Notes under the pieces: model-generated
What the model saw: the letters and a program-made list of their open reading frames with translations, nothing else
The model's database searches: none
Told to the model about the DNA's origin: nothing
Position numbers and translations under genes: made by a program
DNA from: Staphylococcus phage vB_SepS_456
Direction: 5' to 3' (one strand)
Sequence record: MW364973.1
DNA length: 43,266 nt
Part shown: one piece after another, positions 23,930-29,321 of the stretch
How the letters are laid out: every line of letters begins with the position of its first letter
How positions within the stretch are numbered: position 1 is the first letter of the stretch

Positions 23930-24068
23930 TATCGGAGTTAAATATTATAAAATGGGTTACTACACTAACGAACAATTTGCTTTATTTGTAAAAAGAGGGT
24001 TTGTAACACCGGAAGAATATTTAGAGTTAACAGGTATTGAATATGATCCAGAAAAAGTGAATGTATAG
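23922..24068 (+). CDS. XkdX-like mini protein (copy 2)
   Basis: 48 aa ORF not in track (MHDIGVKYYKMGYYTNEQFALFVKRGFVTPEEYLELTGIEYDPEKVNV); ATGCATGA overlap with upstream stop; RBS aggagg. Confidence 0.5.
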   Translation: MHDIGVKYYKMGYYTNEQFALFVKRGFVTPEEYLELTGIEYDPEKVNV

Positions 24069-24122
24069 AATAATTGACAGCCGACGTTTTGCGTTGGCTT
24101 TTTAATTTATCTAAAAGGAGAT

Positions 24123-24395
24123 ATGAGTATGAAAACAGATGTAGGTTCAATTGTAAGAACAATCGTATTTATTTTAGCTTGGGTTAACCAATTTTTAGCT
24201 ACGAAACATATTTCACCTATTCCGGTAGACGAAGTGACTATCAGTTCTATTATTACTGGTGCAATTTCTTTGTGGACTTGGTGGAAAAACAATAATTTCT
24301 CTCACGCAGCACAAAAAGGACAACAAAAATTGCATGAAGTTAAAGCAGGTACAGAAAACACAAATGGTAAAGCACCAATTGGAGGTAATGATTAA
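24123..24395 (+). CDS. Holin
   Basis: 90 aa, two hydrophobic helices plus charged C-terminus, immediately upstream of and overlapping (ATGA) the endolysin; RBS aaaggag. Confidence 0.8.
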   Translation: MSMKTDVGSIVRTIVFILAWVNQFLATKHISPIPVDEVTISSIITGAISLWTWWKNNNFSHAAQKGQQKLHEVKAGTENTNGKAPIGGND

Positions 24396-25777
24396 TGACA
24401 AATAAAACTAGAAGTCAAGCGCATGCTTATTTAGACAGGTTAAAAGGTTATTGGTGGGATTTCGACGGTGTTTATGGCGCACAATGTTTTGATTTAGCCA
24501 ATCAATATTGGTACTACGTAACAGGTCATACTTTAAGTGGTATGTACGCTAAAGATATACCTTTTGTTAATGATTTTAACGGATACGCGAATGTTGTAAA
24601 AAATTATAACTCTTATATTCCTAAAAAAGGTACTTTAGTTGTTTTTCCTTACGAATATGGTAACGGATGTGGTCATGTTGCTATTATAGAAAGTGCTACT
24701 CAAAATTATTTCTATAGTTTGGATCAAAATTGGTATGGCGGGGCAAGAAATAATCCGCCAGAGGTTGCTCAAACAATATACCACGAATATCACCCTGATA
24801 TGTATTTTGTAGAACCTCTGTATTCTAAAGAAACAAAAGTAAGTAAAATTAAAGCAAAAACAACTAAACCTAAACCTGTAAAAAAAGTTAAAAAAAGAAA
24901 AGTGATGATCGTTGCTGGTCATGGGTATAATGATCCTGGTGCTATTGGTAATGGTTATAACGAACGTGATTTTATAAGAAAAAACATTGTTGATAATGTA
25001 TCAAAATATTTGAAAGATGCAGGACATACTGTTGGTATATATGGAAAAAAGCAAGATATGTATCAGGATACAGCCTATGGAGTAAGAGTCGGTAATCACA
25101 GAGATTATGGCTTATATTGGGTAAAATCTCAAGGATATGATACTGTTATTGAATTTCATTTAGATAGTGCAGGTCCTAAAGCTACAGGTGGACATACAAT
25201 CATTCCAGCCGGTTATCCTGCTAATATAACGGATAAAAACATCCAAGCAGCACTAAAACAAAGTGTTGGTACTATAAGAGGGATAACTCAACGTAACGAC
25301 TTATTAAACTGTAATGTTGCTAATGATATTGGTATAGACTATAGACTTGTTGAATTGGGGTTCATTACTTCATATAAAGATATGAAGTATATTAATGAAA
25401 ATATAAAACCTTTCACAAAGTCAATAGCAAGCGCTATTAACGGCAAGCCAATTGGAGGTACAAGTGCAGGTAAAGTTAAAAGTGTAAAAAAAACATGGGA
25501 TTGGAAAGGTAGATTTTATCCGAACACAACAATTAAAGTTAGAAAAAAACCCAACGGCGAAATTGTAGAAAAAGGTTCTTGGTTGTACGGAAAAGACGAT
25601 TGGGTAGATATTGTTCAATTATACAAAGACACTAAGAAAAAATTATGGTGGGGTAAATTCAAATATCCAACCAATCCTAGTTCTGGTTATTTTTATTGTG
25701 CTTTAGGTGAAATCACCGACAAACAAGAACGAATAAAAAAAGAAAAGAAATTATATGGAAAGATAAAGTGGCAGTGA
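24395..25777 (+). CDS. Endolysin: CHAP + Amidase_3 (MurNAc-L-Ala amidase) + SH3b
   Basis: 460 aa; N-terminal ..FDGVYGAQCFD..GHVAII.. (CHAP); middle MIVAGHGYNDPGA (Amidase_3 signature); C-terminal SH3b-like W/G/Y-rich region; follows holin. Confidence 0.85.
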   Translation: MTNKTRSQAHAYLDRLKGYWWDFDGVYGAQCFDLANQYWYYVTGHTLSGMYAKDIPFVNDFNGYANVVKNYNSYIPKKGTLVVFPYEYGNGCGHVAIIESATQNYFYSLDQNWYGGARNNPPEVAQTIYHEYHPDMYFVEPLYSKETKVSKIKAKTTKPKPVKKVKKRKVMIVAGHGYNDPGAIGNGYNERDFIRKNIVDNVSKYLKDAGHTVGIYGKKQDMYQDTAYGVRVGNHRDYGLYWVKSQGYDTVIEFHLDSAGPKATGGHTIIPAGYPANITDKNIQAALKQSVGTIRGITQRNDLLNCNVANDIGIDYRLVELGFITSYKDMKYINENIKPFTKSIASAINGKPIGGTSAGKVKSVKKTWDWKGRFYPNTTIKVRKKPNGEIVEKGSWLYGKDDWVDIVQLYKDTKKKLWWGKFKYPTNPSSGYFYCALGEITDKQERIKKEKKLYGKIKWQ

Positions 25778-25785
25778 CTGTATTA

Positions 25786-25807
25786 AGCGGGGGAACCCGC
25801 TTTTTTA
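25786..25807 (+). terminator. Rho-independent terminator ending the late/lysis operon
   Basis: agcggg ggaa cccgct + ttttttt. Confidence 0.8.
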
Positions 25808-25815
25808 CATAAAAA

Positions 25816-25832
25816 GTGGTATACTTACCACA
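25816..25832 (+). promoter_or_regulatory. Extended -10 promoter TGgTATACT for the moron gene, embedded in inverted repeat GTGGTA-tact-TACCAC (candidate operator)
   Basis: TG at 25817-18, TATACT 25820-25825; 6-bp inverted arms 25816-21/25827-32; RBS aaggtga then ATG 25844. Confidence 0.5.
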
Positions 25833-25843
25833 AGGTGATTAAT

Positions 25844-27004
25844 ATGAAAATAATAAATAATAATTTTACATTTCACAAAGGTAAAAATTGGATAAATTTA
25901 AGTGGGCTACCAAGGAAGAAAACAAAAAGAGGCGAACAAATTATTTGGAAAAATTCCATAGGTTATAATGTGAATTATTTTTTTGAAGGTATCAGTGGAG
26001 ATATAAAAATATTAGACTCTTACAGGAAAAATGATGAAAGATATTTAAAAGTGGAAGTAAAAAACGAAACATATGAAATACGTTCATCTAACTTCAAAAA
26101 TTGCGAAATAAAGAAAATTGTGACTGATGGTTATAAACATAATTTAGGATTTATTATAAATGGTTGTAAAGTAATTGGTAAAAGACTTAATCCAAGAAGT
26201 AAAGAAAGAGAATATAAAATGTTGTGTCTAAATACAAACTTGACATTTTATAGAAGAGAATCAAGAATAGATGTCGGTGCGCCAAGTCCATACATTAGCG
26301 GTAAATATGTTTATGAAGGAAATTGGTTATACAACGAAAAAAATGTTTTACCTTTTTTAAAAGATGTTAATGATGCAAAAAAATATACAAAGTTCTCAAG
26401 GAGAGAAATAAATTGCGTTTGCCCTAATTGTAAAACTGAAAAAACAACGCCTGTTAATAACTTGGTCCAACAAGGTTTCTTTTGCCACGTATGTTCTACT
26501 AACATATCATATCCAGAAAAATTAATGATTGCTTTATTAAATGAAAATAGTGTAGTTTTTGAATATCAAAAAATATTCCAAGATCTTAAACCCAAAAGAT
26601 TTGATTTTTACTTACCAGAATATAATTTAGTTATAGAAACCCATGGAAAGCAACATTATAAAGAAAACGAAATTTGGTATAGAAAATCTAAGGAATCTGA
26701 TGTTGTAAAAATGAGTTATTGCAAAAAGAAAAACATAAAATATGTTGAAGTGGATTGCAGTTTATCTGATTACAACTTTATAATGAATAACATTAATAAA
26801 ACTGAATTGAAACATGTACTAAAATTATATGACAAAGAAAATATAATAAAAAGAATAAAAGAATTAGAGCAAATAAAAGATGTGGATGAAATAATTAAAC
26901 TATACAAGAATGGTAGAAACCTTACATATATCAGTCGAAATGTTGGATTAACCAAATGGAAAATAGAGGGGCTATTGAAACGTCTGGGATATATTGCACG
27001 CTAA
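25844..27004 (+). CDS. Accessory (moron) protein: N-terminal beta-rich domain, Zn ribbon (CxCxxC..CxxC), Vsr/DUF559-like endonuclease core (RFDFYLPEYNLVIETHGKQHY), C-terminal HTH
   Basis: 386 aa; visibly more AT-rich than its neighbours; own promoter and flanking terminators; sits in the classic moron slot between endolysin and attP/int; motif match to DUF559 (R.DF......L.IE.DG..H) with D->H substitution is by eye only. Confidence 0.5.
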   Translation: MKIINNNFTFHKGKNWINLSGLPRKKTKRGEQIIWKNSIGYNVNYFFEGISGDIKILDSYRKNDERYLKVEVKNETYEIRSSNFKNCEIKKIVTDGYKHNLGFIINGCKVIGKRLNPRSKEREYKMLCLNTNLTFYRRESRIDVGAPSPYISGKYVYEGNWLYNEKNVLPFLKDVNDAKKYTKFSRREINCVCPNCKTEKTTPVNNLVQQGFFCHVCSTNISYPEKLMIALLNENSVVFEYQKIFQDLKPKRFDFYLPEYNLVIETHGKQHYKENEIWYRKSKESDVVKMSYCKKKNIKYVEVDCSLSDYNFIMNNINKTELKHVLKLYDKENIIKRIKELEQIKDVDEIIKLYKNGRNLTYISRNVGLTKWKIEGLLKRLGYIAR

Positions 27005-27074
27005 TTCATATCGGGTTATAAGTATATTAAATACACTGGAAATGATATAATTGAATTACCACGTCATTATACAA

Positions 27075-27095
27075 GGGTAGTCGCTATGGCTACCC
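27075..27095 (+). terminator. Hairpin downstream of moron gene (gggtagtc/gctaccc); weak terminator
   Basis: 8-bp stem including one G-U, 5-nt loop, poor T-run. Confidence 0.3.
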
Positions 27096-27240
27096 TCTTA
27101 TAAATTATAATTATGTCTATAATATGTAGATGTTAGATTGATATTAAAAAACATAGTTTAACACTACATTGGTTACACGGTCTGTGCTACAATTAAATTA
27201 CATACAATTTAATCTTTTTTACTCCTTTATAAATTTTGCT

Positions 27241-27270
27241 ACCACGTTCTTTATGAGCGTGGTTATTTTT
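27241..27270 (+). terminator. Rho-independent terminator (accacg/cgtggt, 11-nt loop, tattttt)
   Basis: Perfect 6-bp stem 27241-46/27258-63 plus T-run. Confidence 0.5.
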
Positions 27271-27271
27271 A

Positions 27272-27315
27272 CGGAAGTATACACATTAAATATTAATCGA
27301 GTGTCTATACTTCCG
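27272..27315. other. Candidate attP for the serine integrase: 44-bp imperfect inverted repeat (cggaagtata ... tatacttccg) abutting the int 3' end
   Basis: Perfect 10-bp outer arms with further imperfect symmetry inward around an AT-rich centre; serine-integrase attP sites are typically ~40-50 bp quasi-palindromes next to int. Confidence 0.4.
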
Positions 27316-27323
27316 TACATAAG

Positions 27324-28693
27324 TTAATAAAATTCTATATCATTTATTTTGATAGAATGCCTGTTTTTAAGTTTTACATAATCTATGTCAATAGATTTAA
27401 TAGCCATTTTAATAAAATCTGCTTTATCTTCCAACGAGAATATTTTCCATGATTCCAATAATGCATTTTTAAATTTTTTTATCTTATCTATATCTAGTGA
27501 TTTTCTGGGTACTAATTCTTTTTGCTTTTCATATTCTGCTATTGTTTCGTCTGTTTCTTTAATCAATTCAAATAATTCTTCTTCTTGCATTAACCCTTTA
27601 GCATATAATTTATGATACCTTTTACGTTGTTCCATAATCTTGTCTATATCAATAGTAACGACATCGTCTTTTTGTTTTGTCTTTACTTCATATTTATCTA
27701 AGTCTAGTTTAGATAGGTAATCACGAAACACTCTCAATGCTTCATTCTCTGAAAAACCGAAACTTTGTTTTTTAGTTTTACATGTGTTGCAATAATATGT
27801 TTTATAAGTAACATACCCTTTCTTTCTCTTTCTTGTTGCTGTGTTCATTGTTAATGTGCCACCACATCTCGGACAAATAAATTTACCTCTGAACACTGAT
27901 ACGTGACTGACTATTTTAGTATTGATTCGTTCTTCTAGCCTTTCTTTTATTTGTTGATACATTTCTTCGGTAATAATAGGCTCGTGAGAGTTTTCTATAA
28001 ATACATCTCCCCAAGTATAATGACCTCTTGTTATAGGGTTTCTTAGCGCTCTCGTTATTGTTCTATCTTCCCACCTTTTGCCATTAGGAGGTGGTATATC
28101 TGAATCGTTTAATTTTCTAGCTATAGCTTTTGAACTATTACCTTTCATCACTTCGTCATATGCCCATAAAACTACTTTTTTATAATCATTAGGAATGTAA
28201 GTGTTATCTACACGATCATAATAAAAGGGTGGTGGTGTGAGTATCATACCTTGTTTAATCGCTGCGCGTTTACCCATCATAACACGCTCTCTAATGGTTT
28301 CTCTTTCCCACTCTGCCATAGCACCAACTAACGTAACAAACAGTCTACCCATAGCTGTAGATGTATCATAAACTTCAGTAGCACTTCTGAATGCTACGTT
28401 ATTCTGTTCGAATACCTCTAATAAATCAAGTAGATCACGCACATTACGTGTAAGCCTGTCTAACTTATACACTAAAACTAAATCAAACCGTTTAATATCA
28501 TTCATCATACGTTGTAATTCCGGTCTGTCACGCTTAGCGCCAGAGAAACCAGCGTCGATAAATACGTCTGATACACTCCAGTCGTTTATCTCGCAAAATG
28601 ATTTGAGCTTTCTTTCTTGTTCTTCAATAGAATAACCATGTTCTTTTTGTTCTAATGTACTGACCTGACACGAACGTAAATAGCTACGTTCAT
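27324..28693 (-). pseudogene. int: Large serine recombinase (integrase) disrupted by a 5-bp tandem duplication (+ strand CTGAC CTGAC, 28660-28669) just before the catalytic Ser codon
   Basis: Native ATG 28693 (RBS aaggggtg, 7-nt spacer) gives MNVAIYVRV then shifts to RSVH* (stop 28652-54). The body frame (..QVSTLEQKEHGYSIEEQ.., C-terminal CPRCGG..CNTC zinc ribbon) is otherwise intact. Removing one GTCAG copy restores MNVAIYVRVSTLEQ. Confidence 0.75.
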
Positions 28694-28754
28694 AATTCAT
28701 CACCCCTTAAAAAAGTAAAAAAATAATAAGGGTAGGCAAGCTACCCATGAATTA

Positions 28755-29321
28755 TTATATTTTTCCGTCCCACGCCTCATTTGCCACTCCATTTGTAGTT
28801 GAACGTGGTAATGGTTCTTTAAAACTTCTACGATCTACACCTTGATTTTGATTATTTTGCGGTACTTTCTCCATTTGTGACTCATTGTGAGTAGTTGTTT
28901 TCGTTCTATTCCATTCGTCAATTTCTGATTGGGTCATGTAACCATTATTATTTTGCATTTGTTGGTTGTTATTAGCTTGTTGCTGATTGTTTTTTTGTTG
29001 TGTTGCTTGAGCTTGTTTACCTTGTGATCGTTCATTATTACCATTATTACTTTGAGTTTTGCTATTGTCATTTTTAGATGTGCTTTCAGATTTATTGCTA
29101 GTAGTATCATTGTTAATACCATCTGAACTAGATTGTTGTTTATCGTCATTAGTGTTTTTGTTTGATTCATTCTTACTATCTGATTTCTTCGGACCATTCG
29201 ACTTCTTATCTGATTTACTTTCAGACTTCTTATTATCATCTTTATTCGAGTTATCCCCATTTTGTCCACATGCACCTAATACTAATAAGCTTGCAAATAT
29301 TAAAAATAAAACCTTTTTCAT
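28755..29321 (-). CDS. Lipoprotein with long disordered Ser/Asn/Gln/Lys-rich low-complexity region
   Basis: 188 aa; signal peptide plus lipobox LVLGAC at residues 13-18; >120 residues of low complexity; between int and immA-like gene. Confidence 0.7.
   Translation of the reverse strand: MKKVLFLIFASLLVLGACGQNGDNSNKDDNKKSESKSDKKSNGPKKSDSKNESNKNTNDDKQQSSSDGINNDTTSNKSESTSKNDNSKTQSNNGNNERSQGKQAQATQQKNNQQQANNNQQMQNNNGYMTQSEIDEWNRTKTTTHNESQMEKVPQNNQNQGVDRRSFKEPLPRSTTNGVANEAWDGKI

What the first reader, a model, noticed from the sequence alone, without database searches (positions are those of the whole stretch)
25786..27100. AT-rich moron between endolysin and attP encodes a Zn-ribbon + Vsr/DUF559-like nuclease-core + HTH protein under its own operator-controlled promoter
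The 386-aa ORF (25844-27004) sits in the slot where staphylococcal prophages carry virulence or defence cargo. It is visibly more AT-rich than its flanks. It follows the lysis-operon terminator, has an extended -10 (TGgTATACT) embedded in a GTGGTA/TACCAC inverted repeat, and is followed by hairpins. The protein combines (i) an N-terminal beta-rich domain, (ii) CVCPNCK...CHVC zinc ribbon, (iii) RFDFYLPEYNLVIETHGKQHY, which fits the DUF559/Vsr restriction-endonuclease-like core (R.DF...IE.DG..H) with an unusual Asp->His change, and (iv) a C-terminal resolvase/sigma-r4-like HTH (GRNLTYISRNVGLTKWKIEGLLKRLG). Two readings are possible. It could be a prophage-encoded anti-phage (abortive-infection or DNA-targeting) nuclease. 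Alternatively it could be a free-standing homing endonuclease of the Vsr-like (EDxHD-related) class, which is rare. I do not recognise this domain combination as a described system.
Basis: partly seen in the sequence, partly recalled or inferred. Interest (0 to 1): 0.85.

Follow-up and report, generated by a model that had tools for sequence, protein, structure and literature searches.

The report
Free-standing Vsr-like homing endonuclease gene
The gene between the endolysin and attP of Staphylococcus epidermidis phage CNPH82 most likely encodes a selfish, site-specific DNA-cutting enzyme (a homing endonuclease of the Vsr-like EDxHD class); it belongs to a very large, already recognised phage family, so it is interesting but ordinary.

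The parts
25785..25806 (+). Intrinsic terminator of the holin-endolysin operon (stem AAGCGGG/CCCGCTT plus T-run). It is part of the upstream flank shared with the alternative allele.
   Evidence: z -4.6. It is 94-97% conserved in phiIPLA7, PH15 and E72.
25817..25825 (+). Extended -10 promoter element TGgTATACT. No -35 at proper spacing. The predicted start is around 25832.
   Evidence: Sequence. It is conserved as a perfect TGgTATAAT upstream of the alternative nuclease allele in phiIPLA7, PH15 and E72. Activity is not tested.
25816..25831 (.). Palindrome GTGGTA-TACT-TACCAC overlapping the -10. It is specific to the CNPH82 allele and does not sequester the RBS.
   Evidence: -8.2 kcal/mol, z -2.2. 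It is absent from the phiIPLA7-type upstream region.
25844..27004 (+). ORF for a 386-aa homing-endonuclease-like protein (RBS AAGGTGA at 25832-25838).
   Evidence: phrog_4538 7e-150, phrog_9084 'homing endonuclease' 1e-34. AF2 pLDDT 90.6.
25844..26278 (+). aa 1-145. N-terminal beta-rich region: SH3/Tudor-like barrels plus a Zn-ribbon-like unit that has lost its cysteines. Distant homologues have CxxC...CxxC here. Presumed DNA-binding.
26291..26503 (+). aa 150-220. DUF4379/CapR-type treble-clef zinc finger (C193, C196, C214, C217). Presumed DNA-binding.
   Evidence: C193, C196 and C217 are invariant. PF14311 is hit by 14 of 27 homologues. Literature on this HEG module.
26504..26761 (+). aa 221-306. 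Vsr-like EDxHD nuclease domain. Catalytic set: E225, D254, E265, H267, H271, D286 (plus K289).
26876..27001 (+). aa 345-386. C-terminal helix-turn-helix (resolvase / sigma region 4 / homeodomain-like).
27029..27045 (+). 17-nt remnant of the 3' end (last 5 codons plus stop) of the alternative, type-B endolysin gene. It marks the right-hand recombination joint of the cassette.
   Evidence: AAATACACTGGAAATGA against AAATAGACTGGAAATGA, which ends the endolysin of the HEG-less phages SepS_48 and BE21.
27074..27096 (+). Hairpin (AGGGUAGUC...GGCUACCCU). It is identical in all relatives. In HEG-less phages it is the lysis-operon terminator directly after the endolysin stop. Here its T-run is degraded.
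27270..27317 (.). attP: 16-nt inverted repeat around a core at 27290-27297, next to the large serine integrase gene (27324-28703, - strand).
   Evidence: I2; attP-R annotation of IME1348_01.

Best explanation
The ORF is a free-standing homing endonuclease gene (HEG) of the Vsr-like EDxHD class.

Proposed mechanism:
1. The protein binds a long DNA target through several small modules: the N-terminal beta-barrels, a treble-clef Zn finger and a C-terminal HTH.
2. It cuts with a Vsr-type active site. D254 and D286 (with E225 and E265) hold Mg2+, and H271 (with H267) acts as general base.
3. Like I-Bth0305I, it probably acts as a dimer and makes a double-strand break.
4. The break would occur when a CNPH82-type genome meets a related Rockefellervirus that lacks the gene, by co-infection or by superinfection or induction in a lysogen. 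The cut would fall at or near the end of the lysis module.
5. Repair from the HEG-carrying genome copies the gene and its linked flanks, including the type-A endolysin end, into the competitor.
6. The carrier genome is protected because the target is disrupted or changed.

Shown here: fold, catalytic residues, modular architecture, family distribution, cassette boundaries.
Inferred: enzymatic activity, dimeric double-strand cleavage, the target site, actual homing.
For: 2. Motif. Against authentic I-Bth0305I (gp29 of phage 0305phi8-36): E225=E170, D254=D196, E265=E206, H267=N208, H271=H213, D286=D222. Against E. coli Vsr: E25, D51, F62 and H64 align. The paper defining EDxHD lists exactly these positions. 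E225, D254, E265, H271 and D286 are invariant in all 27 homologues, and H267 is kept in 26 of 27.
3. HEG-type modules. DUF4379 Zn finger in 14 of 27 homologues, I-HmuI NUMOD-like or NUMOD1 in 7, resolvase/homeodomain HTHs.
4. Selfish-element distribution.
- 294 phage records have homologues, with up to 5 copies per lytic myovirus genome.
- Homologues lie beside portal/protease, helicase and terminase genes.
- In Silviaviruses the gene is present or absent between flanks that are 98-99% identical.
- Homologue P0015 (33% identity, 96% coverage) lies inside a group I intron (RF00028, 53.6 bits, E 3e-12) that splits an endolysin gene. Phage 37 has the intron-less allele.
5. Local cassette behaviour.
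- Two about 37%-identical alleles are swapped between conserved flanks (to 25823 and from 27043).
- The slot is empty or differently filled in other relatives.
- A remnant of the other endolysin's 3' end lies downstream.
- Relatives recur at the lysis module in phages with unrelated integrases.
6. PHROGs, GenBank and UniProt name relatives as homing endonuclease, group I intron protein or VSR endonuclease.
Against: - No cleavage or homing has been shown for this protein or any close relative.
- No empty site with the same type-A endolysin was found. All 17 records with that endolysin carry one of the two alleles. Recent mobility at this exact locus is therefore inferred from allele replacement and the endolysin remnant, not seen as a clean insertion/deletion.
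- Sequence similarity to I-Bth0305I is weak (pairwise E 0.001; hhalign probability 35%). Membership rests mainly on fold plus motif.
- The domain order is reversed relative to I-Bth0305I: DNA-binding modules lie on both sides of the nuclease here, but only N-terminal there.
- The position beside attP, behind a terminator and with its own -10, is also what a lysogeny-expressed moron looks like.
Confidence: 0.75

Rival explanations
1. Prophage-encoded defence or superinfection-exclusion nuclease. The gene, possibly a domesticated HEG, is expressed from the lysogen through its own extended -10 promoter. It cleaves the DNA of incoming competitor phages and so benefits the host and the prophage rather than spreading itself.
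For: - It is the last gene before attP, in the classical moron slot, after a terminator.
- Its extended -10 is conserved in both alleles.
- It is AT-rich relative to its flanks.
- The slot holds variable cargo in relatives.
- There is precedent for HEG-derived nucleases in inter-element conflict, such as ICP1 Odn.
Against: - No significant PADLOC match. The best is mREase_II at E 1.8e-4, over the shared Vsr-like core only.
- No partner or immunity gene.
- The family is mostly found, in several copies, in strictly lytic phages with no lysogen to protect.
- One relative is intron-encoded.
- A 2021 comparative study found no lysogenic-conversion genes here and simply called the gene a putative endonuclease.
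- This reading is not mutually exclusive with homing.
Confidence: 0.15
2. Decayed or domesticated non-catalytic DNA-binding protein. It would be a former HEG that now acts only as a regulator or architectural protein near attP, for example helping the serine integrase as a directionality factor.
For: - It has several DNA-binding modules, including a resolvase-like HTH.
- It lies 285 bp from the attP core and next to a large serine integrase, an enzyme type that needs an accessory factor for excision (general knowledge).
Against: - Every catalytic residue is intact in this protein. All are invariant across 27 homologues down to 25% identity, except H267, which is kept in 26 of 27.
- vB_SepS_48 has a closely related serine integrase (93% identical 3' part) but lacks the gene.
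- Relatives sit next to tyrosine integrases or in lytic phages.
Confidence: 0.05
3. Vsr-type T:G mismatch-repair nickase, or a DUF559-type housekeeping endonuclease, carried by the phage.
For: It shares the fold and the E, D, H, H, D active site with Vsr. There are weak DUF559 and Vsr Pfam hits among homologues.
Against: - This protein hits neither the Vsr nor the DUF559 Pfam model, and homologues hit them only far below threshold.
- No cytosine methyltransferase gene is adjacent.
- The nuclease is fused to Zn-finger, HTH and NUMOD sequence-recognition modules typical of HEGs.
- It has the acidic residue at Vsr F62 that marks the EDxHD lineage.
Confidence: 0.02

Closest known systems
I-Bth0305I (EDxHD family prototype; group I intron of the recA/uvsX gene of Bacillus phage 0305phi8-36; PDB 3R3P)
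   Different: - I-Bth0305I is intron-encoded, 266 aa long, with DNA-binding repeats only N-terminal and the nuclease at the C-terminus.
- The CNPH82 protein is free-standing and 386 aa long. It has beta-barrels and a treble-clef Zn finger N-terminal of the nuclease and an HTH C-terminal of it.
- The 'x' position is His (as in Vsr) rather than Asn.
- The general-base His is one residue closer.
- Identity in the catalytic domain is only about 25%.
CapR/DUF4379/DUF723 Zn-finger + EDxHD/Vsr-like HEGs (the 'large unrecognized outgroup' described in phage group I/II introns, NAR 2025, PMC12350094)
   Same: It has the same combination of a treble-clef Zn-finger DNA-binding domain followed by a roughly 100-aa Vsr-like nuclease. 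It is phage-borne, and most members are annotated as hypothetical.
   Different: - The published examples have three to five Zn-finger units and end with the nuclease.
- This protein has one intact finger, one finger-like unit that has lost its cysteines, SH3-like barrels and an added C-terminal HTH.
- It is free-standing in a temperate phage.
E. coli Vsr (very short patch repair endonuclease; PDB 1VSR/1CW0)
   Different: - Vsr is a stand-alone repair nickase linked to dcm, with a structural Zn site inside the nuclease domain and DNA-intercalating Trp residues.
- The phage protein lacks these. It has Glu at F62 and is fused to sequence-recognition modules.
Free-standing phage HEGs of other classes (T4 Seg/Mob; ICP1 T5orf172 and IPA-HNH HEGs)
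   Same: They are also free-standing between conserved genes, with sporadic distribution. They sit at boundaries of genetic exchange and use CapR/DUF4379-type Zn fingers as DNA-binding modules.
   Different: Their catalytic domains are GIY-YIG/T5orf172 or HNH, not Vsr-like.

Membership tests
EDxHD (I-Bth0305I-type) homing endonucleases | Vsr-like (diverged PD-(D/E)xK) nuclease fold | tested here: met
EDxHD (I-Bth0305I-type) homing endonucleases | Composite motif E...D...x...H...D (Vsr E25, D51, H64 position, H69, D97), plus the acidic residue at Vsr F62 | tested here: met
   E225, D254, E265, H267, H271 and D286 align residue for residue with I-Bth0305I E170, D196, E206, N208, H213 and D222. 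E225, D254, E265 and H267 align with Vsr E25, D51, F62 and H64. All are invariant in 27 homologues except H267, kept in 26 of 27. Definition from PMC3239194.
EDxHD (I-Bth0305I-type) homing endonucleases | Nuclease fused to modular DNA-binding domains (NUMOD/HTH) | tested here: met
   The C-terminal HTH matches resolvase and sigma-4 and an I-Bth0305I repeat. Homologues carry I-HmuI NUMOD-like or NUMOD1 domains. The domain order differs from I-Bth0305I.
EDxHD (I-Bth0305I-type) homing endonucleases | Significant sequence-profile similarity to family members | tested here: inconclusive
   Pairwise BLASTP E 0.001 over 114 aa. hhalign profile against the single sequence gives E 4e-4 but probability only 35%. 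The PDB sequence-profile search did not retrieve 3R3P.
EDxHD (I-Bth0305I-type) homing endonucleases | Encoded in introns or inteins, or free-standing with sporadic distribution typical of selfish elements | tested here: met
   Homologue P0015 lies in a group I intron that splits an endolysin gene. There is a presence/absence polymorphism in Silviaviruses. Lytic phages carry several copies. Alleles are swapped or the slot is empty in Rockefellerviruses.
EDxHD (I-Bth0305I-type) homing endonucleases | Site-specific double-strand cleavage of the HEG-less allele, and homing | not testable with these tools
   This needs biochemistry and phage crosses.
CapR/DUF4379 Zn-finger + EDxHD/Vsr-like HEG outgroup (PMC12350094) | One or more CapR/DUF4379/DUF723-like treble-clef Zn fingers N-terminal to a roughly 100-aa Vsr-like nuclease | tested here: met
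   PF14311 (DUF4379) is hit by 14 of 27 aligned homologues, best E 2.4e-5. The window protein aligns through that region with invariant C193, C196 and C217. On its own it scores only weak Zn-ribbon hits. Description.
Vsr mismatch-repair endonuclease (Pfam PF03852) | Match to the Vsr family model at or above its cut-off | tested here: not met
   The window protein gives no Vsr hit. Only 1 of 22 homologue domains hits it, at E 0.038.
Vsr mismatch-repair endonuclease (Pfam PF03852) | Genetic linkage to a cytosine-5 methyltransferase (dcm) | tested here: not met
   The neighbours are the endolysin and attP/serine integrase. E. coli vsr overlaps dcm.
DUF559 (PF04480) / DUF2726 (PF10881) endonuclease-like proteins | Match to the family model at or above its cut-off | tested here: not met
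Known anti-phage defence systems (PADLOC-DB 2.0) | Significant match to a defence-system protein model | tested here: not met
   The best hit is mREase_II, E 1.8e-4, 18.9 bits, over the shared nuclease core only. DpdF scores E 0.012.

The most novel reading that the evidence does not exclude
The temperate phage has co-opted the homing endonuclease as a weapon expressed in the lysogen. Transcribed from its conserved extended -10 promoter in the prophage state, it would cut the lysis-module/attP junction of superinfecting Rockefellerviruses that carry the alternative (type-B) endolysin. It would then act both as a superinfection-exclusion nuclease and as a driver that converts competitors to the type-A lysis cassette. 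The two diverged alleles (CNPH82-type and phiIPLA7-type) would be specificity variants in an arms race.
Probability: 0.12. Interest if true: 0.55.

Novelty: new member of a known kind. Interest (0 to 1): 0.27.

Why it matters
- It gives a concrete functional assignment to a gene annotated as 'conserved phage protein', 'hypothetical' or 'endonuclease' in the CNPH82/CNPx model phages, which are widely used in S. epidermidis CRISPR and defence work.
- It links a very large, mostly unannotated set of phage proteins (about 44,600 cluster representatives) to the EDxHD/Vsr homing-endonuclease class.
- The staphylococcal clade recurs at the lysis module, either free-standing after the endolysin or inside a group I intron in the endolysin gene. 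This suggests that these elements shape endolysin mosaicism in staphylococcal phages, which matters for endolysin-based therapeutics and for phage engineering.
- If active, the enzyme would be a long-target nuclease with an uncommon scaffold.
- None of this changes current concepts. It extends a known kind.

Tried and rejected
1. Sequence searches of the whole protein, and of full-length and domain-only profiles, against PDB sequences. These returned only HTH matches or weak AbaSI and DUF559 hits and did not retrieve 3R3P or 1VSR. The assignment needed the structure route and direct pairwise comparison.
2. Pfam and NCBIfam on the single protein: nothing above threshold.
3. PADLOC: no defence-system membership.
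4. Rfam on window 24000-29000 at E <= 1: no group I or II intron or other RNA family around the gene. The CNPH82 copy is therefore free-standing, unlike homologue P0015.
5. Rfam at the gathering threshold on L021 with the default filters missed the intron. The permissive search found it at 53.6 bits.
6. 'Operator' reading of the GTGGTA/TACCAC palindrome: rejected, because the palindrome is absent from the otherwise conserved upstream region of the alternative allele.
7. RBS-sequestering hairpin: rejected, because the fold leaves the RBS free.
8. Recombination-directionality-factor idea: rejected, because relatives with the same serine integrase lack the gene.
9. Search for an empty site with the same endolysin: none exists in the phage collection, so a clean insertion/deletion at this locus could not be shown.
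10. The supplement of the I-Bth0305I paper with the family alignment was not held. I fetched the authentic sequence from the phage record instead.
Full report
IDENTITY OF THE WINDOW AND CHECK OF THE OBSERVATION

The window is the temperate Staphylococcus epidermidis siphovirus CNPH82/CNPx (genus Rockefellervirus). Region 25700-27330 is 99.9% identical to both records.

The reported ORF is real. It runs from ATG 25844 to the stop at 27004 on the + strand and encodes 386 aa, with the RBS AAGGTGA five bases upstream. The same CDS is annotated in CNPH82, CNPx, vB_SepS_27 and IME1348_01.

The gene is 26.5% GC. The endolysin is 33.0%, the integrase 32.9% and the whole window 34.7%.

A strong intrinsic terminator (25785-25802 plus T-run) follows the endolysin stop (fold z = -4.6). 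TGgTATACT (25817-25825) lies inside the palindrome GTGGTA-TACT-TACCAC. There is no -35 at proper spacing, and the generic promoter scan finds no excess of sites (12 found, 12.5 expected).

Downstream there is a 9-bp hairpin at 27074-27096 and a terminator-like hairpin at 27241-27263. The attP core maps to 27290-27297, inside a 16-nt inverted repeat. It lies directly before the large serine integrase gene (27324-28703, - strand). The ORF is therefore the last gene before attP.

All the quoted peptide motifs exist.

WHAT THE PROTEIN IS

Single-sequence searches against Pfam, NCBIfam and PDB sequences give nothing significant. PHROGs gives four hits:
- phrog_4538 (unknown function), 7e-150, full length.
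- phrog_9084 'homing endonuclease', 1e-34.
- phrog_559 'HNH endonuclease', 2e-24.
- phrog_7140 'intron encoded nuclease', 1e-15.

An alignment of 27 homologues down to 25% identity shows these invariant residues: C193, C196, C217, Y223, E225, D254, F255, E265, G268, H271, Y272, D286 and K289. H267 is kept in 26 of 27.

An AlphaFold2 model built on this alignment is confident (mean pLDDT 90.6).
- Foldseek independently ranks 3R3P and 1VSR first and second.

RESIDUE-LEVEL TEST

I fetched authentic E. coli Vsr. I also fetched authentic I-Bth0305I, which is gp29 'mobile intron protein' inside the UvsX-like recombinase gene of Bacillus phage 0305phi8-36.

hhalign of the nuclease-domain profile against Vsr gives E 2.7e-5 and 39% identity over 44 columns. 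It aligns PE(225) with IE(25), RFD(254)F with RPD(51)F, and VIE(265)TH(267)G with VIF(62)TH(64)G.

BLASTP against I-Bth0305I aligns the whole domain (25% identity over 114 aa, E 0.001). The register is E225=E170, D254=D196, E265=E206, H267=N208, H271=H213, D286=D222 and K289=K225.

These are exactly the positions that Taylor et al. (PMC3239194) use to define the composite EDxHD motif. [quoted passage not shown]

Two consequences follow.
- The protein carries a complete EDxHD/Vsr active site.
His at this position is the native Vsr state.

The remaining modules:
- The zinc ribbon belongs to the DUF4379/CapR treble-clef class. 14 of 27 homologues hit PF14311.
- Several homologues add I-HmuI-type NUMOD or NUMOD1 domains C-terminally.
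- The C-terminal HTH resembles resolvase and homeodomain HTHs. It also resembles one of the NUMOD/HTH repeats of I-Bth0305I.
- In distant homologues the segment equivalent to aa 120-160 carries a second CxxC...CxxC finger. Those cysteines have been lost in the CNPH82 protein.

EVIDENCE FROM DISTRIBUTION

tblastn finds homologues in 294 phage records. Most are lytic staphylococcal myoviruses (Kayvirus, Silviavirus and others), with up to five copies per genome. Some are annotated as homing endonuclease or group I intron protein.

Their positions are classic for free-standing HEGs:
- between portal and prohead protease in phiRNIID;
- overlapping the helicase gene start in SEP9;
- next to the intron-ridden terminase gene in SPJ2.

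In Silviaviruses the portal-protease copy is present in phiRNIID and DELF3. It is absent from Romulus, KSAP11, RP15, StAP1 and PM93, whose flanks are 98-99% identical.

The homologue P0015 (33% identity, 96% coverage) lies in a S. haemolyticus prophage between a 33-codon ORF and the endolysin body. Rfam places a group I intron (RF00028, 53.6 bits, E 2.8e-12) immediately upstream of it. S. aureus phage 37 has the uninterrupted allele, 1.7 kb shorter. A close structural relative is therefore a bona fide intron-encoded protein in an endolysin gene.

Other relatives:
- P0010 (39% identity) follows a different endolysin and precedes a tyrosine integrase.
- P0003 (77% identity) lies at a prophage end next to chromosomal genes.

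The family recurs at the lysis module whatever the integrase type.

A profile search of 1.84 billion cluster representatives returns 44,593 hits at E <= 1e-3 and 4,073 at E <= 1e-30. The best 150 all match the full-length profile. BFVD gives 162 structural matches, including giant-virus proteins. The family is abundant, not rare.

THE LOCAL CASSETTE

Against phiIPLA7, PH15 and E72 the flanks are conserved up to 25823 (94-97%) and again from 27043 (up to 99.4%). Between them sits a different nuclease gene of about 305 aa. It is about 37% identical in protein, and at DNA level only 60 nt of the catalytic core still align.

The other relatives differ:
- vB_SepS_48 has three small unrelated ORFs in the slot.
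- BE21 and S-CoN_Ph18 have nothing there.

In those HEG-less phages the sequence equivalent to 27029/27043 onward follows the endolysin stop directly. The 27074-27096 hairpin is then the lysis-operon terminator, with an intact T-run.

In CNPH82, 27029-27045 (AAATACACTGGAAATGA) is a remnant of the last five codons and stop of that other (type-B) endolysin. The cassette is therefore bracketed by two 'endolysin end plus terminator' units. This is the footprint expected if the gene arrived together with its left flank by recombination at the end of the endolysin gene.

All 17 phage records with the type-A endolysin 3' end carry one of the two nuclease alleles. No clean empty site exists for this endolysin type. 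That linkage is what co-conversion predicts, but simple vertical linkage would give it too.

PROMOTER AND 'OPERATOR'

The extended -10 is conserved upstream of both alleles, and in the phiIPLA7 type it is a perfect TGgTATAAT. An own promoter is therefore plausible, though untested. The palindrome results from a 6-nt difference specific to the CNPH82 allele and is absent from the other allele. It also does not occlude the RBS. 'Operator-controlled' is not supported.

MECHANISM AND RIVALS

Best explanation (confidence 0.75): a free-standing EDxHD/Vsr-like homing endonuclease. Zn-finger, HTH and barrel modules would position a Vsr-type Mg2+/His active site on a long target. By analogy with I-Bth0305I (homodimer, footprint of about 60 bp, specificity centred on the cleavage site), the enzyme would make a double-strand break. 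The break would fall in HEG-less relatives near the end of the lysis module. Recombinational repair would then copy the gene and its flanks. Fold, motif, architecture, distribution and cassette boundaries are shown here. Activity, target and homing are inferred.

Rivals:
- A lysogen-expressed defence or exclusion nuclease (0.15). The moron-like position and the own -10 speak for it. The absence of any defence-family match, the family's predominance in lytic phages and the intron-encoded relative speak against it. It is not exclusive of homing.
- A decayed DNA-binding or excision factor (0.05). The catalytic residues are intact, and relatives with the same integrase lack the gene.
- A Vsr or DUF559 repair enzyme (0.02). 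There is no dcm gene, the family models are not met, and the nuclease is fused to HEG-type recognition modules.

COMPARISON WITH WHAT IS KNOWN, AND NOVELTY

The EDxHD family, including free-standing members, has been described since 2009-2011. A 2025 paper describes phage HEGs made of CapR/DUF4379/DUF723-like Zn fingers followed by an EDxHD/Vsr-like nuclease. It calls them 'a large unrecognized outgroup' with thousands of unannotated members (PMC12350094). Barth et al. show the same Zn fingers as the standard DNA-binding modules of phage HEGs, and show nuclease genes sitting at recombination boundaries. Fisarova et al. 2021 already noted 'the same putative endonuclease gene' after the lysis genes of phages 27, 456 and 459, and a different one in E72 (PMC8125051).

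The CNPH82 gene is thus a new, uncharacterised member of a known kind. Its particular features are:
- one intact and one degenerate finger;
- SH3-like barrels;
- an added C-terminal HTH;
- a free-standing position beside attP in a temperate phage.

Interest is modest (0.27). The assignment is useful for a much-used model phage. The recurrent association of this clade with staphylococcal lysis modules deserves a look. It does not open a new category.

Noticed in passing
window 27029-27045 (with 27074-27096): There is a 17-nt remnant of the 3' end (K-I-H-W-K-stop) of the alternative, type-B endolysin gene. The terminator hairpin that follows that endolysin in HEG-less phages comes after it. The nuclease cassette is therefore bracketed by two 'endolysin end plus terminator' units.
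   Followed up: yes
window 27043-27051: TGATATAAT is a perfect extended -10 consensus. It is almost fully conserved in all six compared phages, with or without the nuclease gene; only S-CoN_Ph18 has one substitution. It points rightwards into the terminator hairpin and attP. Its function is unknown: it could be a promoter reading out across attP/attR, or a coincidence in AT-rich DNA.
   Followed up: no
window 27270-27317: attP of the large serine integrase. It is a 16-nt inverted repeat (94% complementary) around a 16-nt spacer. The spacer contains the 8-bp core that IME1348_01 annotates as attP-R (27290-27297).
   Followed up: partly
L021 5719-8810 (S. haemolyticus prophage, SRR13773733 contig) and L023 2422-4842 (phage Lacachita): A group I intron interrupts the endolysin gene about 30 codons from its start. 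In L021 the intron carries a homologue of the CNPH82 nuclease. In Lacachita the intron is at the equivalent place and carries an AP2-domain (HNH-type) HEG instead. The roughly 200-nt intron core is 84-89% identical across unrelated Staphylococcus and Bacillus phages.
   Followed up: partly
L008 1-2898 (Staphylococcus phage phiRNIID, LC788703.1 133562-137193): The portal gene of this lytic Silviavirus is annotated in two pieces. A gene for an 'RNA-guided endonuclease TnpB family protein' lies between them. That looks like a TnpB-carrying element or intron inside an essential structural gene, right next to the Vsr-like HEG.
   Followed up: no
window 28755-29321 (- strand): A 188-aa ORF lies just beyond the integrase. 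It has a lipoprotein-type signal (…LGACG) and a long Asn/Gln/Ser/Lys-rich low-complexity body. At the equivalent position vB_SepS_27 and vB_SepS_48 have a DUF5067 protein and phiIPLA7 a hypothetical protein. It may be a lysogeny-expressed surface protein.
   Followed up: no
L002 1-79 (phage PH15 tail-associated cell-wall hydrolase, joined CDS) and PMC8125051: The tail hydrolase (hyd) gene of PH15 is annotated as a two-piece join, and a non-coding intron is reported in the E72 hyd gene. Introns therefore occur elsewhere in Rockefellervirus late genes.
   Followed up: no
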